From the NCBI GenBank assembly GCA_965216785.1, contig OZ244197.1, forward strand, positions 1,472,001 to 1,536,000: 64,000 bases of DNA, given 5' to 3'. Position numbers and translations under genes: made by a program. This document shows, in pieces, positions 36,606 to 54,738 of the stretch (position 1 is the first letter of the stretch; the number at the start of each line of letters is the position of its first letter). The stretch is from Thermodesulfobacteriota bacterium. GTDB lineage: Bacteria > Desulfobacterota_D > UBA1144 > Nemesobacterales > UBA2774. The notes under the pieces were generated by a model, which did not search any database, was not told where the DNA came from, and saw only the letters and a list, made by a program, of their open reading frames with translations.

Positions 36606-39600
36606 ATGGATGATCATATAGGTTCAGCAAAAACCGATTCAGAAAGTGAGGTTAAGGATAAATCCTCACAATCCAAAGACACAACAGAGCAAAAGCAAAA
36701 CACCCGGAATAACGGCGATATTAATGCTCAGCAAAATGCTCAAGACGAGCTTATGAAAAGTAAGAACCGCCTCGAGCTAATGAGTAATATTGCCTCTGAA
36801 TTTAATTCTCACGCTACCTTGGACTCGATAATCGAGAACGCGGTCCGGAAAATAAGCGAGTTTTTCAAGGATTTCCGAATAGTTTATTCAACTATAGATA
36901 GTAAGGGGCTTATGAAATGCAAGATCTCCAGCCAGCCCGAGAGTATGGGTAGTGTAGAGGGTCTTGAAGTAGACCTGTCCGCCGAGCCCGGGTACTTACA
37001 TGCCCTTGGTGCCAAAGGTGTGCTAGTCTCTGAGGATATTACTAAAGATGAAAGATTCAGCGCTTTTAAGGAAAAGCTTTTGAGCATTAAAGCAAGAGCT
37101 CTGGTGGATGTGCCCGTATTCGATTCAAGCGGCCTGGCTGGACTTGTATGTATCGATTCTCCCGAGCCGTATAAATGGTCCGAATACGAGATTAAGACCT
37201 TAAAGGAAGCTTCCGCAAATCTGGGTCTTGCCATCAAAAAAGCCCAAATCGAACAAGAGAGAAAGGAATACGAAAATTCCTTAAACAGAACTCTCCAAAA
37301 CTTATCGCGGAAGAATACATATGAATCAATTATTAGCTCTGTCACAAGATCCGTACATCAATCTATAAATGTCCAAGAAGTTTTCGAGCACGCACTTGAT
37401 TCCATGATTAAGAATATAAAAGGCGCGAAAAACATTTCTATTTATATGGTTGAGGATAAAGATGCGGTTCTTAGAGCTTACAGAGGATACGTTGGGAAAC
37501 ATATTGAAAGGATAAGGAGAATTCCATATCCGCACGGTTCAACCTGGAAGACCATTATCGAAGGCTCGCCCAGATATGTTCCGGACGTTGAGGCTGATGA
37601 CGTACTCGGTCAGGCAGGTAGAGATTTGGGAATTCAATGCTACATAGCCATGCCTATTAAATCTGAGGGTGAATCTGTAGGGTGTATACATATAGTTTCA
37701 TTTGATAAGGACCAATTTAGCAAGGAAGAATTCTCATTACTCGAGAAGGTAGTTCAGCAGTTGGAAGCCGCAATCAAAAACGCTAGACAGGCTGAAGTCC
37801 TTCGCCAGTCTGAAGAACGCTACCGCGCCTTATTCGACCAATCCCCCGTAGGGGTATATATATTCGATACCGATTTTAAGATTACAAACTGTAACAAACG
37901 TATGGAGGAGATTCTTGATACTCCTTATGAACATATAGTTGGGATAGACATTAGCACATTTAAAAACACTCGTATATTTTCACTTATAAAAGAAGTACTT
38001 AATGGACAGCCAGGCATGTATGAAGGGTTTTGCGAAGTATCGAGCGGGCCGGTTAGGCCGTATGTATGTATCAGACTCACGCCACTCAGAGATGAAAAGC
38101 AAAACGTAGTCGGCGGCATGGCAGTGATTGAGGATATAACAGAGCGAAGACTTGCCGAAGAGAAGCTGTCTATCCAGGAAAAGCGCATTCGGTCTCTCTA
38201 TGAAATTTCTGCTGAGCCAGGGTTCGGTATTGACCAGCAGATAATACAGACCCTAAAAACGGGCTGTGACATGCTCGGATTAGACATAGGTATAATCGGT
38301 CATGTTGTAGATAAAGTTTATACGGTGCTTTATTGCTTTGATCAGTCAAATACTATTACTCAGGGGCTTAAATTCAATTTAGACATAACTTACTGCAGTA
38401 TTACACTTGCCGAAAATGACGTCGTAGCTATGGATCATGTGAAGATCTCGGAATATAGAAACCATTCTTGCTATAAGGAATTTAAGCTCGAAACCTATAT
38501 TGGGGTTCCTCTAAGTGTTAAAGGTGAGATATTCGGGACTATAAATTTCTCGAGTCCGCAGCCCAGAGAGATACCGTTTAGCAATTCTGATAAAGAATTT
38601 ATTAGACTGATGGGTAGATGGGTCAGCACAATGATCGAACGGAAGCAGACCGAAGTCATGTTGAAAGACAAGGAAGAGCTGTACAGGACTCTAGTTGAAA
38701 ACGCTCACGATCTTATTATAGAGACAAAGATCGACGGGACTGTTGTTTATATGAATTCGAACCACAAGTACCTCCTTGGTTATGATAAACCGGATCTAAT
38801 GGGAAAAACGGTATTTGACTATATCCACGAGGACGATCGCAGGCCTGTGACATCTGAGTTCATGAGGGCTATAATGTCCGATAGCGCGGCGCATTCAGTC
38901 TTCCGGTTTAAGCATAATAACGGCGAGTGGCGCTGGCTTGAGAGCACGGGAAAGTCTTTTAAAACATCAGACGGTGAGCGACGCTGGGTTATCGATTCAA
39001 GGGATATAACTCAGCGCAAAAAGACCGAGGAGCAGATCCGGAAATCGCTCAAGGAGAAGGAATCGCTCCTTCGCGAGATACACCACAGGGTGAAGAACAA
39101 TCTTCAGGTTATATCGAGCCTCCTGAGTCTTCAGTCCGATTATTCAAAAGGCGTAGATTCCTCAAGGCTATTTGAGGAGAGTCAGAACCGAATTTCCGCA
39201 ATAGCGCTAATACACGAGCAGCTATACCAGTCAGAAGACCTTGCTGAGATTGATATGGGGGAGTATATAGCCGATTTAGCTGACAACCTGCTAACGGTTT
39301 ACGGGGATGAAGGCAGTAACGTCAGCGTGGAGTTCAACACTAATGATTTGAGTGTTGACATAGACACGGCCATACCTTGCGGGCTGATTATCAACGAGCT
39401 GTTTTCTAACTGCCTTAAGCATGCTTTTAAATACTGCGGAAAAGATGGTAACAAAAAAGAGGGACTGATAAGCGTAGGGTTTAATTCTTCTACAGAGGGT
39501 CAATATATATTAAGTGTTGCGGATAACGGGTGCGGGCTGCCTCCCGGATTGGATTTCAGGGAGACCGAAACACTCGGTCTTCAGCTTGTCTGTACCCTTA

Positions 39601-39686
39601 CGGATCAGCTACATGGAGACATAGAGCTAAGTGCCGGTAAAGGGGCAAAATTTGATATAAGGTTTCCCAACCAGGTGCGTAGTTAA
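36606..39686 (+). CDS. Cytoplasmic sensor kinase GAF-GAF-PAS-GAF-PAS-HisKA_2-HATPase
   Basis: No TM segment; GAF and PAS/PAC motifs (DITERR, WRWLES); EIHHRVKNNLQ H-box; INELFSN, DNGCG, LGLQLV. Confidence 0.92.
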   Translation: MDDHIGSAKTDSESEVKDKSSQSKDTTEQKQNTRNNGDINAQQNAQDELMKSKNRLELMSNIASEFNSHATLDSIIENAVRKISEFFKDFRIVYSTIDSKGLMKCKISSQPESMGSVEGLEVDLSAEPGYLHALGAKGVLVSEDITKDERFSAFKEKLLSIKARALVDVPVFDSSGLAGLVCIDSPEPYKWSEYEIKTLKEASANLGLAIKKAQIEQERKEYENSLNRTLQNLSRKNTYESIISSVTRSVHQSINVQEVFEHALDSMIKNIKGAKNISIYMVEDKDAVLRAYRGYVGKHIERIRRIPYPHGSTWKTIIEGSPRYVPDVEADDVLGQAGRDLGIQCYIAMPIKSEGESVGCIHIVSFDKDQFSKEEFSLLEKVVQQLEAAIKNARQAEVLRQSEERYRALFDQSPVGVYIFDTDFKITNCNKRMEEILDTPYEHIVGIDISTFKNTRIFSLIKEVLNGQPGMYEGFCEVSSGPVRPYVCIRLTPLRDEKQNVVGGMAVIEDITERRLAEEKLSIQEKRIRSLYEISAEPGFGIDQQIIQTLKTGCDMLGLDIGIIGHVVDKVYTVLYCFDQSNTITQGLKFNLDITYCSITLAENDVVAMDHVKISEYRNHSCYKEFKLETYIGVPLSVKGEIFGTINFSSPQPREIPFSNSDKEFIRLMGRWVSTMIERKQTEVMLKDKEELYRTLVENAHDLIIETKIDGTVVYMNSNHKYLLGYDKPDLMGKTVFDYIHEDDRRPVTSEFMRAIMSDSAAHSVFRFKHNNGEWRWLESTGKSFKTSDGERRWVIDSRDITQRKKTEEQIRKSLKEKESLLREIHHRVKNNLQVISSLLSLQSDYSKGVDSSRLFEESQNRISAIALIHEQLYQSEDLAEIDMGEYIADLADNLLTVYGDEGSNVSVEFNTNDLSVDIDTAIPCGLIINELFSNCLKHAFKYCGKDGNKKEGLISVGFNSSTEGQYILSVADNGCGLPPGLDFRETETLGLQLVCTLTDQLHGDIELSAGKGAKFDIRFPNQVRS
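39023..39406 (+). repeat. 384-bp direct repeat, copy 1 (kinase core)
   Basis: Manual alignment to 40825-41208 gives 383/384 identical, with A39342 versus G41144. Confidence 0.93.
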
Positions 39687-41488
39687 TGAGTGTATCTAAT
39701 CCGGAGTCGTTTACAGAAAGTCTCGAAAATTACAGGGAAATATTTCAGAATTTAAATGTTATGGTCACCATTCATGACGAACATGGTGATATAGCTGTCG
39801 TAAATAAAAGGGTTGTTGATTTTCTTGGATATGCCGAAGACGAGATGCTTTCAGTAAGCATTACCGATATGACTACTGCAGAATCTCACCCCTCGTTTTT
39901 AGAACTACTCGAAACTACAATACGAAGTGGTTCATCAACAAAGGAAGTATCTTTCAGAAAGAAAAACGGTGATGTGATCCCCGCAAAAGTGTCTTCAAAT
40001 CTGATTCGGATAAATGGCGAGAAATATATTCTGAGCGTAATGGATGAGGTGACAGAGCTCAAGGAAGTGGAAAAGGAGCTCACGGAAAAAAACCTGTTTA
40101 TCGACTCCATCATTGAGAATATTCCTAACACGATTTTCGTAAAAGATGCGAAAGAGCTTAGGTTTGTGAGGTTTAATAAGGCAGGGGAAGAGCTTCTCGG
40201 ATACTCGAGGAGTGAAATGCTGGGCAAGAACGACTACGACTTTTTCCCCGGAGAAGAAGCCGATTTTTTCACAAATAAAGATAGGGCTGTTCTAAATAGC
40301 AAAGAACTTTTAGATATATCGGAAGAGCAAATACACACAAAAAATATGGGTGTAAGGACGCTTCATACAAAAAAAATCACTATTAACGACGAACATGGGA
40401 ACCCAAAGTATCTCTTAGGAATTTCAGAGGATATTACTGAGCGCAAGAAAGCAGAGGATATGCTCCGGGAAAATGAGGAGTACTATCGTTCAGTAGTTGA
40501 AAATGCTCATGATCTCATAATAGAAACCAATAACTCTGGAACATTTATATATGTGAGTCCCAACCACAAGACTGTCTTAGGGTATGAACCTCAAGAGCTA
40601 GTAGGTACAAGCATTTTTAAAAACATTCATCCCGATGATGTAAAAGATGTTGTTTCAAAATTTTCACAAGCTGTTGTTAGTCAATCTAATGGCCACGGTA
40701 TTTTCAGGTACAGGCATAGTAGTGGTGAATGGAGGTGGTTTGAGACTAACGGCAGGCCCATTAATACTCCTTCTGGTCAGGTGAGGATCATCTTACATTC
40801 CCGCGACATAACAGAGCGTGTGAGGACCGAGGAGCAGATCCGGAAATCGCTCAAGGAGAAGGAATCGCTCCTTCGCGAGATACACCACAGGGTGAAGAAC
40901 AATCTTCAGGTTATATCGAGCCTCCTGAGTCTTCAGTCCGATTATTCAAAAGGCGTAGATTCCTCAAGGCTATTTGAGGAGAGTCAGAACCGAATTTCCG
41001 CAATAGCGCTAATACACGAGCAGCTATACCAGTCAGAAGACCTTGCTGAGATTGATATGGGGGAGTATATAGCCGATTTAGCTGACAACCTGCTAACGGT
41101 TTACGGGGATGAAGGCAGTAACGTCAGCGTGGAGTTCAACACTGATGATTTGAGTGTTGACATAGACACGGCCATACCTTGCGGGCTGATTATCAACGAG
41201 CTGTTTTCCAATTGTTTGAAGCACGCATTTACTCCGGTGATTTCTGGTACAACAAACGGAACTATAAAAAATCTAATATCCGTAGGATTCAGATCCGAGG
41301 CTAGTGGTGAACTTGTTCTCTCGGTGAAAGACAACGGCGTAGGACTTCCGGAGGGACTTGATTATAAAAATACCGAGTCCCTTGGTCTTCAGCTTGTTTG
41401 TACGCTTACAGATCAGCTCGGTGGTAGTATAGAAGTTAAGAACGGGGTTGGATGTGAATTCAGAATCACTTTCCCCTCTGAGGTTTGA
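39686..41488 (+). CDS. Cytoplasmic sensor kinase PAS-PAS-PAS-HisKA_2-HATPase
   Basis: TAATG stop/start overlap with the previous gene; three PAS domains; EIHHRVKNNLQ; DNGVG. Confidence 0.92.
   Translation: MSVSNPESFTESLENYREIFQNLNVMVTIHDEHGDIAVVNKRVVDFLGYAEDEMLSVSITDMTTAESHPSFLELLETTIRSGSSTKEVSFRKKNGDVIPAKVSSNLIRINGEKYILSVMDEVTELKEVEKELTEKNLFIDSIIENIPNTIFVKDAKELRFVRFNKAGEELLGYSRSEMLGKNDYDFFPGEEADFFTNKDRAVLNSKELLDISEEQIHTKNMGVRTLHTKKITINDEHGNPKYLLGISEDITERKKAEDMLRENEEYYRSVVENAHDLIIETNNSGTFIYVSPNHKTVLGYEPQELVGTSIFKNIHPDDVKDVVSKFSQAVVSQSNGHGIFRYRHSSGEWRWFETNGRPINTPSGQVRIILHSRDITERVRTEEQIRKSLKEKESLLREIHHRVKNNLQVISSLLSLQSDYSKGVDSSRLFEESQNRISAIALIHEQLYQSEDLAEIDMGEYIADLADNLLTVYGDEGSNVSVEFNTDDLSVDIDTAIPCGLIINELFSNCLKHAFTPVISGTTNGTIKNLISVGFRSEASGELVLSVKDNGVGLPEGLDYKNTESLGLQLVCTLTDQLGGSIEVKNGVGCEFRITFPSEV
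40825..41208 (+). repeat. 384-bp direct repeat, copy 2 (kinase core)
   Basis: Offset 1802 nt from copy 1; single mismatch. Confidence 0.93.
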
Positions 41489-46539: not shown

Positions 46540-46845
46540 CTAAGACGCTTTTTTTTGAGCAGGACCGGCAAAGTGACGGTCGCGTATAGGGTCGTTGTCG
46601 AGATCTGAGATCAGATATCCGATCCGGTATTGATCTCCCGGGAAATAGTAGAGCCGTATACCCTGGGGCGTGAGTAGATACAGCCCGTCTTTTTTGGTGT
46701 CATCGGGCAATTCTACTTCATATATAGGGAAGCCGACGGTGCCGCCCCCGATATTTATCTGACGTCTCTCATTTCTTAATTTTTTTATGTTTTTCGCAAT
46801 ACCCCAGACCTTGGGGAAGATCTGGCCGTTTACAGTTATTTTCAT
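46540..46845 (-). CDS. Hypothetical protein
   Basis: 101-aa ORF with GAGGT RBS, co-oriented with neighbours. Confidence 0.65.
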   Translation of the reverse strand: MKITVNGQIFPKVWGIAKNIKKLRNERRQINIGGGTVGFPIYEVELPDDTKKDGLYLLTPQGIRLYYFPGDQYRIGYLISDLDNDPIRDRHFAGPAQKKAS

Positions 46846-46872
46846 TACTTACCTCGTTAAGATGATGTGTTA

Positions 46873-47235
46873 TTAGGCTGATATCTTGATTTCTGTAATA
46901 AGCCCCGTGCAGGTGATTATTTTATCTAAATTTTCGTTCCTGGGATATAAATAGCGGTGCTCGGGTTTTTCTCCGCAACTGCGGCAAACTTCCTCCTCCT
47001 CTGATATATCAACCCAGATTGCGCAAGCGCCGCAGTAATCTCCCATCTCCTCATACCAGGCTAAATGAGAATACAAGAGCTCATTCAATCCTCTCTTGCC
47101 CAGGGTGGAAGCCCACTCAGTCAGGTCCTGGGTAATTCTCTCTCTGAATTTAGGCGGAACCTCAGACAGGTCGCCCGAATAGATTTGGTCTTGGTTAACA
47201 TAAATTTTACAGCTAAAAGACTTTTCGCCTGTCAT
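46873..47235 (-). CDS. Hypothetical protein with zinc-ribbon-like CxxC...CxxC
   Basis: YCGAC...VCRSCG; 120 aa, fills the gap on the operon strand. Confidence 0.65.
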   Translation of the reverse strand: MTGEKSFSCKIYVNQDQIYSGDLSEVPPKFRERITQDLTEWASTLGKRGLNELLYSHLAWYEEMGDYCGACAIWVDISEEEEVCRSCGEKPEHRYLYPRNENLDKIITCTGLITEIKISA

Positions 47236-47307: not shown

Positions 47308-49218
47308 TCAGTTGCTCATAGCCTCAGCGCCGAGCACGCTGGCCACAGCATCCTGTATCTGGTCCACTGAGAAGGGTTTCTTGATTATCTTGTACGAGCC
47401 TTCTGAAATCTCATCAGGAAGCTGTTCCTCTGAGCGTCCGCTTATAATTATCACAGTAGAGTTCGGGTCAATCGTTCCTATGTCTCTTAGTATTTCGACG
47501 CCGTCTTTTTTGGGCATCGAAAGGTCAAGGAATATAATGTCAAAATGGTTTTGCTTAATTAGCCCGAGAGCACTCTCACCGTTACCGGCTGTCATAACGT
47601 TGTGCCCCGTACTTGATAAACACTCCTTTATTATATCACGGATAAATTCTTCATCGTCCACGACAAGTATGTTCCCCTTTCTTCTAAGCTCCAGCACCTT
47701 CGCGCTCTCGACTTTTTGTCCTGTTTTAGTGCTGACGCTTTTGCTTAGAGTCTGCACATTTGGCAGGAGTATGGTGAAAGTGGTTCCTTTGTCAATCTCG
47801 CTGCTCACGTCGATTCGTCCGCCGTGGCGCTCGATTATAGCATAAATTACGGACAGGCCGAGCCCCGTCCCTGATTTTGTGCCTTCACTGAACTTTGTGG
47901 TGAAAAACGGTTCGAAGATTCTGGGCAGATTCTCACTGGATATTCCGCTGCCTGTATCTGAGAAGTCGATCCTTACGTTATTGCCTTCTAGTTTTGTGCT
48001 TATAGCTATGGCGCCGCCGCCCGGCATGGCGTGTTTTGAGTTAATTGCTAGGTTCAGGAAAACCTGCTGCAGCTCGCCCAAATTCAGTCTGATAGCCGGC
48101 ACTTTTTCGTAGTTCCGGAGAATCTTGATTCCCTCTGTTTCAAATGTGTGCTCGACTAGGCTAAGTGCGTCGTCAATAACGTTCTCTATCTGAGCGACCT
48201 GGAACTTCTCGCCCTTTTGCCTTGAGAAGCTTAGGAGTTTATTCACTATTTCGACAGCCCTATCTGAGGCTTTTTCTATAACATCGAGGTCTTTTCTCAC
48301 CCCCTCCATGTTATCTCTTGTAATCGCGAGACTCGTGTAGCCGATTATTCCCGAGAGTATGTTGTTAAATTCGTGCGCGACGCCTGCCGCGAGCTGCCCG
48401 ACGCCGGACATCTTAGCCGAATGGATAAGCTGCGCCTCGAGTTTTTTCTTCTCTGTAATATCTTCGGTCGCTACGATAACGCCGAATATCTCTCCTGTCT
48501 CAAAATCCACTAGCGGAGAGAGAGATACCTCAAGGAATTCATCTCCCGACTTAAGCTCGTGCTTAGTGGAATAGGAGGCTTCGCTAAGTATCTTTGGAAT
48601 AATAGTCTCAAAATTTATACCGTCTAAGAGGTCGCTGAGTTTCTCGCCAATGCAGTCCTTTTTAAAAATCTCCTTTGTCTTTGGATTCGCGCTCTGTATA
48701 ACAAGGTTCCTGTCAGTAGTGATAATACTTTCAATCGTGCTGTTAAGAGTGTTCTCAAGCTGACGGTTTCTTTCTTTAACTTTTTGTTCAAGGTTTGTGT
48801 TTAGCTCTTTTAAGTCGCTTAAAAGTCCCGTGTTCTGTTTGTACAGGTCGTATCTTTCAACAGCGTGCTCTATGACGCTTTTGAGTTTGCTGTAATCAAG
48901 CGGTTTGATAAGGTAGTCAAAGGCGCCGTTCTGCACCGCTTCCACAGCTGTTTCAAGAGAGGCAAACCCGGTCATTAGGATTACCGGAATATGCGGGTCT
49001 TTGTTCCTTATTTCCTCAAGTAGGTCTATACCGCTTTTTTTAGGCATTCTAATGTCGGAAATCACAACATCAAAAGACTTAACCTTTAAGAACTCGATTG
49101 CCTTCTCGCAGTTATTAGCGGCTAGTACTTCATAGCCTTCCTTAGTTAGGATGTCGGCAATGATCTTCAGAATCAGATGTTCATCGTCAACGACTAATAC
49201 CCTTTTAGTGTTGTCCAT
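47308..49218 (-). CDS. Hybrid kinase REC-coiled coil-PAS-HisKA-HATPase-REC
   Basis: VLVVDDE...SDIRMP...DYLIKP; AHEFNNIL; NLAINS, SDTGSG, FEPFFTTK, GTGLGL; ILVVDDE...LDLSMP...KPF; AGGAG RBS before ATG 49218. Confidence 0.93.
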   Translation of the reverse strand: MDNTKRVLVVDDEHLILKIIADILTKEGYEVLAANNCEKAIEFLKVKSFDVVISDIRMPKKSGIDLLEEIRNKDPHIPVILMTGFASLETAVEAVQNGAFDYLIKPLDYSKLKSVIEHAVERYDLYKQNTGLLSDLKELNTNLEQKVKERNRQLENTLNSTIESIITTDRNLVIQSANPKTKEIFKKDCIGEKLSDLLDGINFETIIPKILSEASYSTKHELKSGDEFLEVSLSPLVDFETGEIFGVIVATEDITEKKKLEAQLIHSAKMSGVGQLAAGVAHEFNNILSGIIGYTSLAITRDNMEGVRKDLDVIEKASDRAVEIVNKLLSFSRQKGEKFQVAQIENVIDDALSLVEHTFETEGIKILRNYEKVPAIRLNLGELQQVFLNLAINSKHAMPGGGAIAISTKLEGNNVRIDFSDTGSGISSENLPRIFEPFFTTKFSEGTKSGTGLGLSVIYAIIERHGGRIDVSSEIDKGTTFTILLPNVQTLSKSVSTKTGQKVESAKVLELRRKGNILVVDDEEFIRDIIKECLSSTGHNVMTAGNGESALGLIKQNHFDIIFLDLSMPKKDGVEILRDIGTIDPNSTVIIISGRSEEQLPDEISEGSYKIIKKPFSVDQIQDAVASVLGAEAMSN

Positions 49219-51739
49219 CTTCCTCTCCTTTAACGTCATTATTTTTATTGCTTGGGAGCTCTATTGTAAATACCGTGCCTTTCCCCTTTTCGCTCCGGAC
49301 GATTATCCTACCCTGGTGCTCTTCTATTATCTTATAGGCAATCGATAATCCGAGCCCTGTTCCCATGTCTTTCTTTGTGAAAAACGGGTCAAATATTTTG
49401 CTCAGGTCTTCCTCTTCTATACCCAAGCCCGTGTCTTTGAAGCTCACATATACATTTTCAGTTTCTTGGTTAATCAACATATTTTTTTCCCAACCGGTCT
49501 CTATCGTTAGGTCACCACCCTCGGGCATTGCCTGTATAGCGTTTACTATGATGTTAATAAACACCTGCCACAGCTGGTTAGAATCGGCCATTATGTCCGG
49601 TACGTCTTCTTTTAAATTCTTGATAAGGTTCACGTTGTTATCCGAGAGCTGTTTTCTAATTAGTACTACTACGTTATCAACTACGTTATTTACGTTTACC
49701 TTTTCAAAATGGGGCGGCTCTGCCTTTGAAAACTTAAGCAGGCTGTCGATAAGGGTGTTTGTTCTTTCTATTTCGTGCTTTATGTAATCCAGATACTCCC
49801 CGACTACTTCTTCGTTTTCATCGTTTGTCAGATAGGTGGAGAGGTAGTATCTCGCCCCCTCGATAATGTTGAGCGGATTGCGAATCTCGTGAGCCACTCC
49901 CGCGGCAAGCTGGCCGATGGCAGACATTTTTTCCGCATGAACCAATTGATCCTGAGTGTCTTTTAGCTCGGTGTTTGCAAGCTCGAGTTTTTTCGCATAG
50001 TCCTCGACAAGCTTGAATGCGAGCGCGTTTTCTACTGCGATTGCGCTCTGGTTTGCAAGCAAGCGGAGCAGCGTGATATCCATAGTCGTATAAGTGAGTC
50101 CCGATTTTTTATCTCCCAGAGCAATGAACCCGATCAGCTGCTTCTTAAAGAACAGCGGCATTATTAGAGAAGCGTCAAATCTCTTAAACTCGTTCATAAG
50201 CTCCTCTGATCGGTTTATGTATTTCTCGTCGGCTATGAGGTCTTCTTTGAATATCTCTTTTTTATACCTGTTGAAGCTCTCAACAAGAACGTTTGTGCTT
50301 TCTATATTTTTATTCCCTTGTATATCTGTATTATCGCTGCTGTAGTAAGCCTCATAGATCCCAGTGTCTTCGTTATAAATTGCGACAGTTACCGGGCTTG
50401 AGAACATAGTGCTCTCGATCACGCTGATGATCTTGTCTATGATCATATCTATACTCAGAAGAGAAGTCATAGCGTAGCTCACTTCCTCTACCGTTCTTCT
50501 GTAGTCATATTTCTTTCTAAAAAACGTTAGGTCCACAATTTCCTGTATACGGTTTTTAAGCGGATTAAGCGCAAGTACCAAGAAGCTGCTCATGATCAGG
50601 AAGAAAGCCGGGTTCTTCCAGCCGCCGTGCTGTGCGTAGGCCATGTTAAAGGTTAGGACCATAAGAGCGAACACTGCGCCCACTGTTCCGGTTAGCAGTC
50701 CGTAAGTGATCGTTTTCTGTATGATTACATCAATATCGAAGAGTTTATGCTTGACGATGGCATAACCAATCGATAGGGGAAACAGTATTACTGGCAGGGC
50801 CATTAAATTAAAAGGTATGTTTAACTTGAAAATTGTAATGCCTACAGCCGCCGCGGCGGGAATTATCAGACCCAGTAAGCAACCTAAGAAAATAATCTGA
50901 GCTCTTTGCTTCTCTAAGGATGATTGTGAACGAAGGAATGTGAATAAAGACGAAAGAGGGAATATTGCGGCGCTTAATAGTAGATATATCCAGATAGAAA
51001 TATAAAGGATTTTCCATGTGCTGTAGGAATCGAAGAAAATCATTATAAGAGCGTAGATAGCCAGTGATAATATTAGAAACGGCAGCGTTGCGAAGTATCG
51101 GGATTTTTCTTTTATCTTAGTATCCGAAGGGAAGATGAACATCAGGTAAATCCCAAACATAGGGCTGAAAATCATCGCGAAAAATGTAATTTTGTCAAAG
51201 TAGTATGTAGCCTGCGCGTCAAATGAACCCACAAACCATATGCCAAGCGCAGTGCAGAAGAGGAAAAACGCTTTACTGGCTAAATCATCGGGCTTTATGT
51301 AAATTACAAAAACGCCGATTGTAAAAAATACTACCCCGATTAGATAAATGACCCCGAAGACAAGAAGCAGGTCTTTAGCAGAGAGTTTCTGTACTGGTAT
51401 TGTAATGTCGAAGAAGCGGTTGTTTCTCTCGATCGTATAATCAACTTTTTCACCGACTGATAGCGTACCGATAATATTTTCAATATCCACAGGAGCGGAT
51501 ACTTCCTGACCGTTGATTAGTATTACTTTGTCACTGAACCTTTTTAGCTTATCGCCGTTTACGGTCGAGGGGGCGATATCAGTGATAACCAGGTTGTCGT
51601 AGAAGAAAAACCCCGGGTATGTTTTGTCTACCCACTTGAGCCCAAGTATGAAATTGGCTATACAAAAGCTAAGCAGCACTACTACTACGATGCCGAATAG
51701 GGGTCTAGAAAAATTTTCAGAATTCTGCTCGAACGTCAT
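49205..51739 (-). CDS. Membrane sensor histidine kinase: TM, PDZ-like domain, ~9 TM, GAF, HisKA, HATPase
   Basis: DKVILINGQEV...GEKVDYTIER (PDZ-like); about ten hydrophobic helices in total; LGDKKSG..Y...D...LANQSAIAVEN (GAF); AHEIRNPL; NIIVNAIQAM; DTGLG; GTGLGL. Confidence 0.9.
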   Translation of the reverse strand: MTFEQNSENFSRPLFGIVVVVLLSFCIANFILGLKWVDKTYPGFFFYDNLVITDIAPSTVNGDKLKRFSDKVILINGQEVSAPVDIENIIGTLSVGEKVDYTIERNNRFFDITIPVQKLSAKDLLLVFGVIYLIGVVFFTIGVFVIYIKPDDLASKAFFLFCTALGIWFVGSFDAQATYYFDKITFFAMIFSPMFGIYLMFIFPSDTKIKEKSRYFATLPFLILSLAIYALIMIFFDSYSTWKILYISIWIYLLLSAAIFPLSSLFTFLRSQSSLEKQRAQIIFLGCLLGLIIPAAAAVGITIFKLNIPFNLMALPVILFPLSIGYAIVKHKLFDIDVIIQKTITYGLLTGTVGAVFALMVLTFNMAYAQHGGWKNPAFFLIMSSFLVLALNPLKNRIQEIVDLTFFRKKYDYRRTVEEVSYAMTSLLSIDMIIDKIISVIESTMFSSPVTVAIYNEDTGIYEAYYSSDNTDIQGNKNIESTNVLVESFNRYKKEIFKEDLIADEKYINRSEELMNEFKRFDASLIMPLFFKKQLIGFIALGDKKSGLTYTTMDITLLRLLANQSAIAVENALAFKLVEDYAKKLELANTELKDTQDQLVHAEKMSAIGQLAAGVAHEIRNPLNIIEGARYYLSTYLTNDENEEVVGEYLDYIKHEIERTNTLIDSLLKFSKAEPPHFEKVNVNNVVDNVVVLIRKQLSDNNVNLIKNLKEDVPDIMADSNQLWQVFINIIVNAIQAMPEGGDLTIETGWEKNMLINQETENVYVSFKDTGLGIEEEDLSKIFDPFFTKKDMGTGLGLSIAYKIIEEHQGRIIVRSEKGKGTVFTIELPSNKNNDVKGEEDGQH

Positions 51740-51763: not shown

Positions 51764-54523
51764 TTAGCTAATAACCGGACTCTTGCTATAAATATCCCAG
51801 TCGGTATTAACCCTTGATCCTAATTTTTCGATAGCTCTTCTTGACGCTATGTTATCTTCCAAAATCCATGTCAATGCGGCCCTTTCGTATCCGTTATGTA
51901 TCATTGCTTCACATGCCCTGCCTAAAAGACAGGCTCCGAGCCCCTTTCCACGGAATGTCGGTGATGTACCGACAATAGTTACCGCTCCCTTGTGAATCTT
52001 TCTAAGCTCAAGCGGAATCTTGATAAGCTTGAGGAGTTTTGTCTCCCCCGCGAGATCTCTGAAGATGGCCGCATAGTCCGGGAACGCCCCTACAAACCCC
52101 ACGGGCTCGCCGCGCTGCTCCGCAATAAGCCAGAATTCGGGCTCAATCAGTGACTTGAAGTCCTCGGCGAACTCTAAGAGCTCTTCGTATTCAAGGGGGA
52201 CGTAACCCCATTGCTTGGCCAGTGAAGCATTGTACAGATCGGTGACAGTACGAACTTCCTCCGTCCACTTAGACTTATCGAGCGGTCTAATGCGGATATC
52301 GGACAAAGAGGGATTGTGAGCGTGTCCGTGTACAGTTTTGATATTCTCAGGAGATTTCAGGTCAAGTGTGTAATGCACAAGGTTTTTAATAGGCGTAAAT
52401 CCGGAGTTTTTGAAATACTCGTGGTAGTAGGGGTGAGTGTATATCTGGAGGAATGATGGTATGCCACCATAATTACTTGCAAGGAACCCTCCTCCGAACA
52501 GTCCGAACAGTCCGTTCACAGGGCCCCTTACTTCCTTACAGCCTTCAGAGTCCAAAAACTCACTTGCCTTTCCAAGTAGCAGCTCCACAGCCACACTTTT
52601 GTCGGGAAGCGCTTCAAAGAATCCTACAAATCCTGTTTTAGTATTGTGGTATCGGTTGAAATATTTGTCTACAAATGCGCTTACTGTGCCAACTAGCTTA
52701 CCATCTTCTTCAACGATGAACCTCTTGCCATAAACTTTTCTCTGGTAATAGTACTTGTTGCTGATTAGCTTTATCTGATCCTTGATTAGAAAATACGGTA
52801 CCCAGGCGGGGCAGTCTTTATAAACCTCCCAGGAAAATCTTACGGATTTTTCTATATCTTCTTTAGAGCTGATTTCTTTGACCGAGTATTTCTCTCCGTC
52901 CTCATAGTTAAATGTAAAGGGTTTATCTATAATCCCGTATTTTCTTCCCAACTTCTCAAATACTTCAAGAGTAGTATCCAAGTCTTCCTGAGTATGAGTG
53001 GCCATAACACTAACCCTGAAGCGCTCGTGTCCTTTGGGCACTGCCGGGTGAGGAATAGCGTTTGTGTATATGCCCTCTTCGTGCAAATTCCTGCTCATTT
53101 TTTTAAGGGTAAGCTCGTCACCAATCATGACGGGGATTATCGCGGTCTCGCTCTGCGCGGTATCAAACCCAAGGCTCTTAAGGTTTTCCCTCATATACCT
53201 TATGTTTCCCCAGAGGTTTTTATGGAGCTCTTTATCCGTTTGCATGACCTCTATGGCAGCAAGTGCCGAGGCTGCGACTGAAGGCGGGAAATTGGTGGAG
53301 AAGAAAAAAGAGCGCGTATAATATCTTAGGAAATTCACAACCTCTTTTGTTGAGGCTACGAACCCACCGACTGCCCCCAAAGACTTGCTGAGAGTGCCCA
53401 TGACGAGGTCGACTTCCCCGGGTTTCATTTGAAAGTAACTCGGTGTGCCGCTTCCCATCTCTCCGACGACGCCTGTTGCGTGTGCTTCATCGACCATTAT
53501 TTTGGCTCCGTACTCGTGAGCCACTTCCGTTAGCTGCGCCAGCGGAGCGATGTCTCCGTCCATACTGTAAACGCCGTCTATCAGTACAAGCTTGCCCTGG
53601 AAATTATCAATGTTTCTTTTTAGTACTCCCCTGAGGCTCTCTACGTCTGAGTGCTTGAATGTTCTGAAAGAGCCCGCGGAAAGAATGCAGCCGTCTATGA
53701 TGCTCGCGTGCGCGAGTCTGTCTATGGCTGCCAGGTCGCCGTTTCTTACCAGTGCTTGAATGCATCCGAGGTTTGTTACATACCCGCTAGGGAATACCAA
53801 AGCGTCTTCACAGCCTTTGAGCTCTGCAAGCCTCATCTCGAGCTTTCTGTGTATGTCGAATGAGCCTGCCAGAAGAGGTACCGAGCCCGCGCCGGCCCCG
53901 TATTTATCCATCATTTTCTGCGCGGCGCTGATGACTTTGGGATGGGCGGTCAGGCCTAGGTAATTGTTGCTGCCCATCATGACCATCTCTTTTTCTTCCC
54001 CGGTAAAATCATCCTCGATCATAACCCTGTTAGAGGACATGGACGTAAGCGGTCTTCTGTATCTGATATAGCCCTTCTCCGTCATATCGGTGCGATACTC
54101 CCAGAACACGTCTGCTTTCTTAAAAATGTCGGGGTCCGGATAGTCAGGGAAATCGGCTAGAGAGTAGTTGTCGGAATTGAGCTTGTTAGAGCCTGACTGA
54201 AGATATTTTTTTATTTTAGATCTGTCGGATTTGGAAATATTTACAAACTTAATACCGAGTCCAATCTGCTCTGAATCGCTCTTTACGGAGTGCACAGCTT
54301 CACAATATACTTTAACAGGGAAAGAGGATTCAGAGAGGTCCAGCTCTAAAAAGAGTTTAGAGCCCGGCTTATAGAGCTCTTGGGTCTCAACAAACATCCC
54401 GTCTTCCGATAGGTCTGTTGCGATACCAAAAACTGTGCCGCTTCCCCGAAGCAGTACCTTGAAGCTTGCATGAGTTCTTTCGAATCTCCTGCGCTCGCCG
54501 CTTTTTTCAATTAAAATACCCAC
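51764..54523 (-). CDS. PilZ / alpha-oxoamine synthase (SPT-AONS-CqsA family) / YghO-bCerS-like GNAT triple fusion
   Basis: PilZ RRFER...DLSEDG; GSNNYLGL, HASIIDG, DGVYSMDGD, DEAH, GTLSKS (PLP Lys); GNAT part AWVP, GFVGFFEA, RGPVN, PYY, WGYVP, FRGKGLG, WILEDN; GGAGG RBS before GTG. Confidence 0.9.
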   Translation of the reverse strand: MGILIEKSGERRRFERTHASFKVLLRGSGTVFGIATDLSEDGMFVETQELYKPGSKLFLELDLSESSFPVKVYCEAVHSVKSDSEQIGLGIKFVNISKSDRSKIKKYLQSGSNKLNSDNYSLADFPDYPDPDIFKKADVFWEYRTDMTEKGYIRYRRPLTSMSSNRVMIEDDFTGEEKEMVMMGSNNYLGLTAHPKVISAAQKMMDKYGAGAGSVPLLAGSFDIHRKLEMRLAELKGCEDALVFPSGYVTNLGCIQALVRNGDLAAIDRLAHASIIDGCILSAGSFRTFKHSDVESLRGVLKRNIDNFQGKLVLIDGVYSMDGDIAPLAQLTEVAHEYGAKIMVDEAHATGVVGEMGSGTPSYFQMKPGEVDLVMGTLSKSLGAVGGFVASTKEVVNFLRYYTRSFFFSTNFPPSVAASALAAIEVMQTDKELHKNLWGNIRYMRENLKSLGFDTAQSETAIIPVMIGDELTLKKMSRNLHEEGIYTNAIPHPAVPKGHERFRVSVMATHTQEDLDTTLEVFEKLGRKYGIIDKPFTFNYEDGEKYSVKEISSKEDIEKSVRFSWEVYKDCPAWVPYFLIKDQIKLISNKYYYQRKVYGKRFIVEEDGKLVGTVSAFVDKYFNRYHNTKTGFVGFFEALPDKSVAVELLLGKASEFLDSEGCKEVRGPVNGLFGLFGGGFLASNYGGIPSFLQIYTHPYYHEYFKNSGFTPIKNLVHYTLDLKSPENIKTVHGHAHNPSLSDIRIRPLDKSKWTEEVRTVTDLYNASLAKQWGYVPLEYEELLEFAEDFKSLIEPEFWLIAEQRGEPVGFVGAFPDYAAIFRDLAGETKLLKLIKIPLELRKIHKGAVTIVGTSPTFRGKGLGACLLGRACEAMIHNGYERAALTWILEDNIASRRAIEKLGSRVNTDWDIYSKSPVIS

Positions 54524-54640
54524 AAGCGATCCTCCAAAAAAGCCGTCAACTTTTAGGGTCTTCTTTAATATACTTAATAAACTTCTTGATGCCTAGGCGA
54601 TAATTATCCTATAATATTGAATAAAATGCAAGCGGTTCGC

Positions 54641-54738
54641 TCTTCGGTAGCCCAACTACCATAGGCGAAAAATAATTTCGCCCTTAGGCTTGAAGCTTTG
54701 CGTCCTATCTTTTCAGATAGTTTGCCGTTTCGGAATGA
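54641..54738 (-). ncRNA. Cyclic di-GMP-I (GEMM) riboswitch
   Basis: Minus strand GGCAAA-CUAUCU-GAAA-AGAUAG-GACGCAAA-GCUUCAAG-CCUAAG-GGCGAAA(UUAUU)UUUCGCC-UAUGG-UAGUUGGGC-UACCGAA: GAAA tetraloop on P2, canonical 11-nt receptor in P3, conserved junctions. Confidence 0.93.

What the first reader, a model, noticed from the sequence alone, without database searches (positions are those of the whole stretch)
51764..54523. Triple fusion of PilZ, an SPT/AONS-family synthase and a bCerS-like GNAT in one 919-aa ORF
All three modules have intact signatures in one frame. PilZ has RxxxR (RRFER) and DxSxxG (DLSEDG). The PLP domain has HAS, DEAH and GTLSKS, which is closer to the SPT-type GTFSKS than to the KBL-type GTLGKA. 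The ~370-aa C-terminal region matches the YghO/bCerS GNAT pattern (GFFEA, RGPVN, PYY, WGYVP, RGKG, WILEDN). The two enzyme domains would catalyse consecutive steps of bacterial ceramide synthesis, which are normally separate genes. The SPT loop GSRxLNG reads GSVPLLAG here, so the amino-acid substrate may not be serine. No CerR-type reductase gene was recognised in the window, so the keto product could be the end product.
Basis: partly seen in the sequence, partly recalled or inferred. Interest (0 to 1): 0.85.

Follow-up and report, generated by a model that had tools for sequence, protein, structure and literature searches.

The report
c-di-GMP-gated lipid signal synthase-receptor cassette
A real, conserved gene fuses a c-di-GMP-sensor-type domain to two enzyme domains and sits between a c-di-GMP riboswitch and a membrane sensor kinase whose input half shares the enzyme's family tree rather than the genome's, so it likely makes a ceramide-like chemical signal that this kinase would detect in strain-specific "dialects".

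Summary
The 919-aa PilZ–oxoamine synthase (AOS)–tandem GNAT fusion is real: 31 other full-length homologs, and contigs from other studies bridge both junctions. A ceramide-pathway role is doubtful: the AOS falls outside the Spt and BioF/Kbl clades, has Val where Spt has Ser, lacks ACP/CerR neighbours, and 11 of 38 carrier genomes have no such GNAT. Synthase and sensor input domain share one tree that conflicts with the flanking genes, switching near sensor residue 320-340. Best reading (0.65): a c-di-GMP-gated synthase of an N-acyl aminoketone signal with its cognate receptor, CqsA/CqsS-like in logic but not in that family. No chemistry, binding or expression is shown. Not found in print in six searches. 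The scan noted this system before in other genomes; I retested those leads.

The parts
54643..54736 (-). c-di-GMP-I riboswitch aptamer, ending about 120 nt before the start codon
   Evidence: Rfam RF01051, 81 bits (gathering 35), full model; an aptamer pattern lies 193-216 nt before the start in 17 of 20 leaders of the fused gene
54603..54631 (-). Conserved sigma70-like promoter element (TTGCA(A/T)-17-GAT(A/T)AT) between aptamer and gene; function inferred
   Evidence: In 16 of 17 leaders; the pattern was fitted to these same leaders
54565..54577 (-). Conserved TTAA-N5-TTAA palindrome, possible operator; function unknown
   Evidence: TTA(A/G)-N5-TTAA in 16 of 17 leaders, 37-45 nt before the start
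51764..54523 (-). PilZ-AOS-tandem GNAT fusion gene, 919 aa
54197..54496 (-). PilZ domain (residues 10-109), the only PilZ match in the genome
   Evidence: RxxxR found in 57 of 59 and (D/N)xSxxG in 53 of 59 family proteins by pattern match
52928..54085 (-). PLP-dependent alpha-oxoamine synthase domain (residues 147-532), own clade; H272, D345, H348, K380 present; V215 at the amino-acid gate
51773..52888 (-). YghO/bCerS-type tandem GNAT (about residues 546-917)
49205..51739 (-). Membrane sensor histidine kinase, 844 aa: TM-PDZ-7TM-(2 TM)-GAF-HisKA(H617)-HATPase; starts 24 nt after the fusion's stop
50750..51739 (-). Sensor input region (about residues 1-330, PDZ plus 7TM bundle) whose tree follows the synthase
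47308..49239 (-). Cytoplasmic hybrid kinase, 643 aa: receiver-PAS-HisKA(H289)-HATPase-receiver; overlaps the sensor gene by 35 nt
46540..47235 (-). Two small conserved genes (120 and 101 aa) without a Pfam match, usually following the kinases; membership in the cassette uncertain
   Evidence: In 12 and 11 of 20 loci; no Pfam hit

Best explanation
The gene is a conserved PilZ-oxoamine synthase-GNAT fusion lying behind a c-di-GMP riboswitch and in front of two histidine kinase genes, and it likely makes a diffusible, ceramide-like N-acyl aminoketone signal that the adjacent 7TM sensor kinase would detect. Shown: domains, riboswitch, gene order, co-occurrence, and that synthase and sensor input domain share a history different from the flanking genes. 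Inferred steps: (1) c-di-GMP would control expression through the riboswitch and enzyme activity through PilZ, direction unknown; (2) the AOS would condense a small amino acid (Gly or Ala, from V215) with an acyl-CoA or acyl-ACP to an aminoketone, as the family does; (3) the bCerS-type GNAT would N-acylate it, while relatives without GNAT would leave it, reduce it (SDR, Zn-dehydrogenase) or methylate it; (4) the product would bind the 7TM bundle of the sensor, which would pass phosphate to the hybrid kinase; (5) synthase and input domain are exchanged as one block between lineages, giving signal dialects.
For: Sensor gene within three genes downstream in 19 of 20 loci, hybrid kinase after it in 18 of 20; the misses are contig ends. 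In 120 genomes: synthase 38, sensor ortholog 38, both 37, GNAT 27. G074 against its congeners: AroC 90-93%, hybrid kinase 88-93%, sensor residues 336-835 79-95%, but PLP 51-54%, GNAT 41-44%, sensor PDZ 25-30%, sensor TM 39-41%, where the congeners share 88-98, 77-94, 58-85 and 74-91%. Trees of 21 genomes: PLP and sensor input unite G074, G079, G008, G010, G011 (support 100) and reject the genus (p-AU 5e-90, 2e-32); sensor output and hybrid kinase keep the genus (99, 98) and reject the five. Change point at sensor residue 318-340 in 9 of 11 triplet tests, at the end of the predicted 7TM bundle. The substrate loop differs among orthologs at the same locus (SVP, SVR/SIR, GAA, SAP, GSP). Variable tailoring genes between synthase and sensor. 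The nearest outside GNAT (L167, support 99) also precedes a HisKA_7TM-GAF kinase, with an aminotransferase instead of an AOS. AOS synthase plus membrane kinase is the known layout of CqsA/CqsS and LqsA/LqsS (PMC8023197 passages).
Against: No product, ligand binding or expression is shown; no RNA run was listed. Synthase and sensor input are neighbours, so one recombination tract carries both whatever their function; the end of TM7 is a conserved stretch where crossovers are easy. The AU groups and triplets were chosen after seeing identities and trees; the G013 test (chi2 19.6) is no stronger than a concordant control (18.7); two tests gave 368 and 394. In G001 the PLP domain groups with G005 while GNAT and sensor input group with the other type. 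The sensor occurs without synthase in G015 and as a second copy in G031. The catalytic lysine is replaced in G004 and G023. A spirochaete PilZ-AOS genome and four genomes with the nearest Bacillota AOS have no sensor ortholog (0 of 5). Carriers are kin, so co-occurrence overstates.
Confidence: 0.65

Rival explanations
1. The fusion makes a structural membrane lipid (an oxidised 1-deoxy- or 1-deoxymethyl-ceramide) when c-di-GMP changes, and the kinase monitors that lipid in the cell's own membrane rather than a signal between cells.
For: The GNAT is a YghO/bCerS homolog and the only one in the genome. Spt and bCerS act consecutively in the cytoplasm in Caulobacter (PMC11087976, first of four parts read). 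1-deoxyceramides in the Black Sea were tentatively tied to Desulfobacterota or Bacteroidota (PMC11334938 passages). A 3beta-HSD-type SDR, 44% identical to the one in the slot of G005, lies elsewhere in this genome. A lipid-sensing kinase would also co-vary with its synthase.
Against: AOS outside the Spt clade, which holds every sampled AOS that has a YghO neighbour (p-AU 0.0074 for joining). No ACP, acyl ligase, CerR or extra lptFG among the recurring neighbours, unlike E. coli, Pseudomonas and Roseomonas loci. Best match to E. coli CerR is E 1e-19, weaker than the 1e-30 filter in PMC11334938. 11 of 38 carriers lack the GNAT; 82 of 120 genomes lack the gene. Allele exchange between families is not expected of a structural lipid enzyme (inference).
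Confidence: 0.2
2. The synthase and the kinases merely share a c-di-GMP-controlled operon; the PDZ-7TM sensor responds to something else (for example a peptide or envelope stress through PDZ) and its 5' part hitchhikes in recombination.
For: Sensor without synthase in G015 and G031; distant sensor paralogs sit beside dnaE, ftsY and ribD. The PDZ part resembles HtrA/DegS PDZ domains (Foldseek E about 1e-3). Adjacent DNA is exchanged together.
Against: Change points cluster at the end of the 7TM bundle in several separate lineages. GNAT and sensor TM distances stay correlated after control for the hybrid kinase (r 0.91, 22 genomes, 0 of 5000 permutations), while PLP and hybrid kinase do not after control for the sensor TM (r 0.05). 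A second cassette (L167) pairs the sister GNAT with a 7TM-GAF kinase.
Confidence: 0.09
3. The product is an antagonistic or protective secondary metabolite and the matched kinase is a self-recognition or resistance switch.
For: Allelic diversity and tailoring enzymes also fit competition; neighbouring AOS branches include a polyketide-cluster enzyme (L144).
Against: No exporter or immunity gene recurs in 20 loci; the only recurring transport gene is an outer-membrane barrel in 9 of 20.
Confidence: 0.04
4. The PLP domain is a housekeeping BioF or Kbl that happens to carry extra domains.
For: Best NCBIfam scores are BioF/Kbl-type (413, 399, 391 bits); V215 is the Kbl residue.
Against: All below cut-off. 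The genome has a separate gene over the bioF cut-off (467.7 against 426.45) next to a class III aminotransferase. No Tdh over cut-off. Joining BioF/Kbl is rejected (p-AU 0.002).
Confidence: 0.02

Closest known systems
CqsA/CqsS (Vibrio) and LqsA/LqsS/LqsR (Legionella) alpha-hydroxyketone signalling
   Same: PLP-dependent AOS-family synthase encoded next to a membrane histidine kinase (PMC8023197, PMC5289986 passages); receptor-only genomes also occur there.
   Different: Not the CqsA family (NF005526 194.6 bits against 428). PilZ domain, riboswitch, bCerS-type GNAT and a PDZ-7TM-GAF receptor are added; output goes to a hybrid kinase. CqsA was not in my trees.
Bacterial ceramide pathway Spt-bCerS-CerR (Caulobacter; E. 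coli BL21 spt-yghO locus)
   Same: AOS condensation followed by N-acylation by a YghO-type GNAT gives an oxidised ceramide (PMC11087976); the GNAT here is homologous. Plain Spt-GNAT fusions exist elsewhere (P0062, P0063, inside the Spt clade).
   Different: AOS outside the Spt clade, Val for Ser at the gate, no ACP, ligase or CerR in the locus, GNAT optional, kinases nearly obligatory, c-di-GMP elements present.
ComQXP (Bacillus) and agr (Staphylococcus) polymorphic signalling loci
   Same: Signal-making genes and receptor vary as a linked block giving pherotypes (ComQXP polymorphism: PMC4408185 passages; that the variable block ends after the receptor's sensor part is recalled, not read).
   Different: Those signals are peptides; here the enzymes would make an acyl-amino-ketone. 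No homology of the synthases.
ThAOS (Thermus thermophilus BioF/Kbl-type enzyme, PDB 7poa)
   Same: Best solved-structure match by sequence (E 4e-87) and same Val at the amino-acid gate.
   Different: Stand-alone enzyme; R after the Val is P here; the family forms its own clade away from BioF/Kbl (ThAOS itself was not in the trees).

Membership tests
Alpha-oxoamine synthases (AOS) | PLP fold type I with His stack, Asp, His and Schiff-base Lys | tested here: met
   H272, D345, H348, K380 align with ThAOS; fold Z 34.2, rmsd 4.0-4.1 over about 360 residues to ALAS and Spt
Serine palmitoyltransferase (Spt) | Score over an Spt family cut-off | tested here: not met
   373/640, 340/500, 295/670 bits; E. 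coli, Roseomonas, Pseudomonas and Bacteroidota controls pass
Serine palmitoyltransferase (Spt) | Ser at the position of ThAOS Val79 | tested here: not met
   V215; Val, Ile, Ala or Ser among orthologs
Serine palmitoyltransferase (Spt) | Placement in the Spt clade | tested here: not met
   Separate clades with support 99-100; p-AU 0.0074 on 32 rows, LG+G4, groups named after earlier trees
Serine palmitoyltransferase (Spt) | Condenses L-Ser with a long-chain acyl thioester | not testable with these tools
   needs an assay
BioF (AONS) | TIGR00858 cut-off, BioF clade, bio operon context | tested here: not met
   399 against 426 bits; p-AU 0.002; a separate bioF passes the cut-off
Kbl | Val at the amino-acid gate | tested here: met
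   V215
Kbl | Family cut-off and a Tdh partner | tested here: not met
   391/460 and 331/493 bits; no TIGR00692 match over cut-off in the genome; other Tdh families were not searched
bCerS/YghO GNAT | Full-length homology and shared motifs | tested here: met
   E 2e-30 to E. coli YghO; 37 of 45 plasmid hits cover at least 80%; WGxVP and WxLExN-type motifs shared
bCerS/YghO GNAT | Tandem GNAT fold | tested here: met
   predicted model residues 535-917 match 7q3a (Z 23.5), 5kf1 (21.8), MshD 1ozp (21.4)
bCerS/YghO GNAT | Direct comparison with the characterised Caulobacter bCerS | not tested
   its sequence was not fetched; E. coli YghO stood in (its identity as bCerS is recalled and fits its locus)
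Bacterial ceramide pathway | Spt, bCerS and CerR together | tested here: not met
   no Spt-clade gene among the genome's two AOS genes; best CerR-like hit E 1e-19; genome 92% complete
CqsA/LqsA autoinducer synthases | NF005526 cut-off | tested here: not met
   194.6 against 428 bits
CqsA/LqsA autoinducer synthases | Encoded with a membrane sensor kinase | tested here: met
   19 of 20 loci, 37 of 38 genomes
CqsA/LqsA autoinducer synthases | Product is a signal that the kinase senses | not testable with these tools
   needs chemistry and a reporter
PilZ c-di-GMP receptors | Pfam domain with RxxxR and (D/N)xSxxG | tested here: met
   all 38 carriers encode GGDEF proteins
PilZ c-di-GMP receptors | Binds c-di-GMP | not testable with these tools
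   needs a binding assay
c-di-GMP-I riboswitch | RF01051 over gathering score, upstream of a gene | tested here: met
   81 bits against 35
Polymorphic synthase-receptor loci (ComQXP/agr type) | Synthase and receptor input vary together against the genome background | tested here: met
   physical linkage is a confound
Polymorphic synthase-receptor loci (ComQXP/agr type) | Type-specific activation of receptors | not testable with these tools
   needs cross-activation tests

The most novel reading that the evidence does not exclude
A new class of bacterial cell-to-cell signal: a ceramide-like N-acyl aminoketone made by one fused enzyme under double c-di-GMP control, read by a histidine kinase with a GPCR-like 7TM bundle, and diversified into dialects by exchange of synthase and receptor input as one block. 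It would be one member of a wider set of lipid-amide cassettes that pair a repurposed ceramide synthase with 7TM-GAF kinases.
Probability: 0.4. Interest if true: 0.9.

Novelty: new variant of a known kind. Interest (0 to 1): 0.78.

Why it matters
If true, it links the intracellular lifestyle messenger c-di-GMP directly to production of an extracellular signal, shows the bacterial ceramide synthase fold reused for signalling, and names a ligand class for the widespread PDZ-7TM kinase inputs, which have no named family in the Atlas clusters found. Natural synthase-receptor types give ready matched and mismatched pairs, so the idea can be tested in E. coli without culturing the organism. It also warns that AOS plus YghO genes do not by themselves mark a sphingolipid producer.

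Tried and rejected
Misassembly or frameshift: rejected. BioF and Kbl: rejected. Riboswitch direction: the 5' flank can pair with the ribosome-binding site (duplex -17.4 kcal/mol here), but site opening in my ligand-bound mimic barely changed here (0.21 to 0.27) and was mixed in 17 leaders; the mimic also drops the 5' part; inconclusive. A conserved promoter-like element downstream of the aptamer means the gene may partly bypass the riboswitch. The promoter/terminator scan gave nothing specific. In 9 two-domain loci no aptamer lay upstream of the synthase; 3 had one between synthase and the next gene. Expression: no RNA holder listed. PDB sequence search gave no match for the GNAT at E 0.001; Foldseek on the whole model listed only AOS chains and no match at E 0.001 for the sensor. 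The 7TM match to GPCR-like folds (Z 17.0, rmsd 3.2 over 200 residues to a designed GPCR-like fold; 14.8 to class C receptors) is near the range common for helical bundles and shows no function. The two columns for this genome and the positions in the sliding window were out of frame and were redone. Stankeviciute 2022 was not held. Literature searches listed no paper on this architecture (listings only); one search listed CqsA papers. Most subscription papers are not in the library. No complex prediction and no representative-library search were run.
Full report
Observation. The ORF at 51764-54523 (-) is one frame of 919 codons with Pfam PilZ (10-109), Aminotran_1_2 (179-521) and Acetyltransf_1 (781-902), all over cut-off. 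Among the 120 hits listed of 231, 31 other clusters have all three domains at 44-91% identity, and 25 more (P0037-P0061) are PilZ-AOS proteins of 531-553 aa without GNAT. Contigs from three studies other than the possible source bridge the domain junctions. Sources name homologs Deltaproteobacteria or Thermodesulfobacteriota bacterium; that the phylum is Ca. Dadabacteria is my inference and comes from no call.

The PLP domain. Catalytic residues are intact. No NCBIfam model reaches its cut-off: BioF/Kbl subfamily 413/535, BioF 399/426, Kbl 391/460, Spt 373/640, CqsA-type 195/428. In a 145-row FastTree and 58- and 32-row IQ-TREE trees the family is one clade (99-100), apart from the Spt clade (99-100), which holds E. 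coli, Pseudomonas, Roseomonas and Bacteroidota Spt and all sampled AOS genes with a YghO neighbour, and apart from BioF/Kbl (97-99). AU tests reject joining Spt (p 0.0074) or BioF/Kbl (p 0.002); the groups were named after earlier trees and the model was LG+G4, so these values are optimistic; CqsA and ThAOS were not in the trees. The genome's only other AOS passes the bioF cut-off and follows a class III aminotransferase; no Tdh passes its cut-off. V215 aligns with ThAOS Val79, which gates the amino-acid side chain and is Val in Kbl, Ser in Spt and AONS (PMC11906848, passages): Gly or Ala is the likelier substrate (inference). This loop differs among orthologs.

The GNAT. It is the only YghO homolog in the genome (22% over 385 columns, E 2e-30); E. 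coli BL21 yghO lies with spt, ACP, an acyl-AMP ligase and a reductase. The model is a tandem GNAT. The family's GNATs are a long-branched clade (100) whose sister among 43 rows is L167 (99). L167 lies in a different cassette: lipid-transport/reductase fusion, class III aminotransferase, GNAT, HisKA_7TM-GAF hybrid kinase, a 123-aa receiver-like ORF, ketoacyl synthase, methyltransferase; its 7TM region is weakly similar to the sensor here (hhalign probability 53%, E 1e-4).

c-di-GMP elements. A c-di-GMP-I aptamer lies at 54643-54736 (81 bits); this lead came from an earlier scan note. An aptamer pattern sits 193-216 nt before the start in 17 of 20 leaders of the fused gene. The genome has 7 such riboswitches, 4 GGDEF genes and this single PilZ match; all 38 carriers are among the 55 of 120 genomes with GGDEF. 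PilZ motifs are kept in 57 and 53 of 59 proteins. Binding and direction of control are untested. A promoter-like element and a TTAA-N5-TTAA palindrome are conserved between aptamer and gene in 16 of 17 leaders (fitted patterns).

Neighbours. The gene is followed after 24 nt by an 844-aa membrane kinase and an overlapping 643-aa hybrid kinase. The sensor input is predicted as one helix, a PDZ domain, a seven-helix bundle (121-329) and two more helices (pLDDT 79.9), with a GPCR-like arrangement at fold level only. In 20 loci from relatives (chosen from the 38 carriers) the sensor follows in 19 and the hybrid kinase in 18; both misses are contig ends. Over 120 genomes: synthase 38 (21 full-length matches, 5 cut by contig ends, 1 split into two genes, 11 PilZ-AOS only), GNAT 27, sensor ortholog 38, synthase and sensor together 37. 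The 11 two-domain genomes have no YghO-like match at E 1e-4 (completeness 83-98%). Their loci often carry an outer-membrane barrel (8 of 11, plus the split locus) and, between synthase and sensor, an SDR (2), a Zn-dehydrogenase (1) or a methyltransferase (2). No ACP, acyl ligase or CerR-like gene recurs next to the synthase; an SDR beyond aroC in 10 loci may be unrelated. Exceptions: G015 has riboswitch, methyltransferase and kinases without synthase; G031 has a second sensor without one; G004 and G023 lack the catalytic lysine.

Synthase and sensor input travel together. Earlier scan notes claimed this; I tested it on 33 genomes. G074 is 88-94% identical to its congeners in AroC, sensor kinase core and hybrid kinase but 51-54% in PLP, 41-44% in GNAT and 25-41% in sensor PDZ and TM parts, which instead resemble G079, G008, G010 and G011 of other genera and families. 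Trees of 21 of these genomes confirm the conflict in both directions. Partial correlations with the hybrid kinase as control are 0.61 (PLP with sensor TM, 30 genomes) and 0.91 (GNAT with sensor TM, 22), 0 of 5000 permutations each, against 0.23 for PLP with the kinase core; kin are not independent. Change points fall at sensor residue 318-340 in 9 of 11 triplet tests on 6 focal genomes, 368 and 394 in the other two; one test is no stronger than a control. Physical linkage explains co-transfer but less well a repeated boundary at the end of the putative ligand-binding bundle; sequence conservation at that point could also favour crossovers there.

Mechanism. Shown: anatomy, conservation, phylogenetic placement, linked variation. 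Inferred: c-di-GMP gates expression and activity; AOS makes an aminoketone from a small amino acid and an acyl thioester; GNAT N-acylates it; the 7TM kinase senses it and relays through the hybrid kinase. I put this at 0.65, a structural or self-monitored lipid at 0.2, unrelated operon partners at 0.09, an antagonistic metabolite at 0.04, housekeeping at 0.02.

Comparison and novelty. It works like CqsA/CqsS and LqsA/LqsS (PMC8023197 and PMC5289986, passages) and varies like ComQXP (PMC4408185, passages; the agr and sensor-boundary parallels are recalled), but fails membership of the CqsA, Spt, BioF and Kbl families. For the ceramide pathway I read the first of four parts and passages of PMC11087976 and passages of PMC11334938; the founding paper was not held, and its supplement may list such fusions. 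Searches listed no paper describing this architecture. The scan has noted the same system in at least three other genomes; those notes are leads, not support. Verdict: new variant of a known kind, interest 0.78.

Noticed in passing
L167:1357-11443: Metagenome cassette: lipid-transport/reductase fusion, class III aminotransferase, YghO-type GNAT, HisKA_7TM-GAF hybrid kinase, receiver-like ORF, ketoacyl synthase, methyltransferase. Looks like a parallel lipid-amide signal cassette with a different amine-forming enzyme.
   Followed up: partly
P0062, P0063: Separate Spt-GNAT fusions of 780-801 aa without PilZ, inside the Spt clade and with an Spt-type loop; probable true Spt-bCerS fusions.
   Followed up: partly
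P0069, P0072, P0073, P0078, P0100 and relatives; L047:7989-9593: PilZ-AOS fusions outside this family, on several separate branches, some with a second RRxxxR-like repeat; the spirochaete copy is followed by an AMP-ligase gene. PilZ-AOS fusion may have arisen more than once.
   Followed up: partly
window 54565-54631: Conserved promoter-like element and TTAA-N5-TTAA palindrome downstream of the aptamer; the palindrome occurs 218 times in the genome against 77-155 for other spacings of 2-9.
   Followed up: partly
L122:4972-11609 (G015): Riboswitch, methyltransferase, small opposite-strand gene, sensor and hybrid kinase, without synthase: possible listener-only or different-synthase locus.
   Followed up: partly
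L139, L140, L141 (own genome): Other c-di-GMP-I riboswitches precede an SLT-SPOR transglycosylase, PKD and beta-helix/fn3 proteins, and a CBM96 beta-helix protein, suggesting a surface or matrix regulon.
   Followed up: partly
L021-L030 loci; own genome 824861-826450: A 550-680 aa protein without a confident Pfam match, like alginate-export barrels in the Atlas (0.96), sits beside the synthase in 9 loci; this genome has a 35-40% homolog elsewhere.
   Followed up: partly
L145:5713-11305 and L146:5760-10286: Plasmid-borne AOS-GNAT-SDR clusters in Rubrobacter (with an LTA-synthase-family gene) and Streptomyces (with a condensation-domain gene), Spt-clade, in Gram-positive hosts.
   Followed up: no
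window 46540-47235: Two small conserved genes without Pfam match after the kinases; the 120-aa one has CxxC pairs.
   Followed up: no
window 36606-41488: Two tandem soluble GAF/PAS kinases of the HisKA_2 type; not linked to the finding.
   Followed up: no
L132:5321-10444 (G077): Fusion and sensor genes both have several frameshifts; sequencing error or decay not resolved.
   Followed up: no
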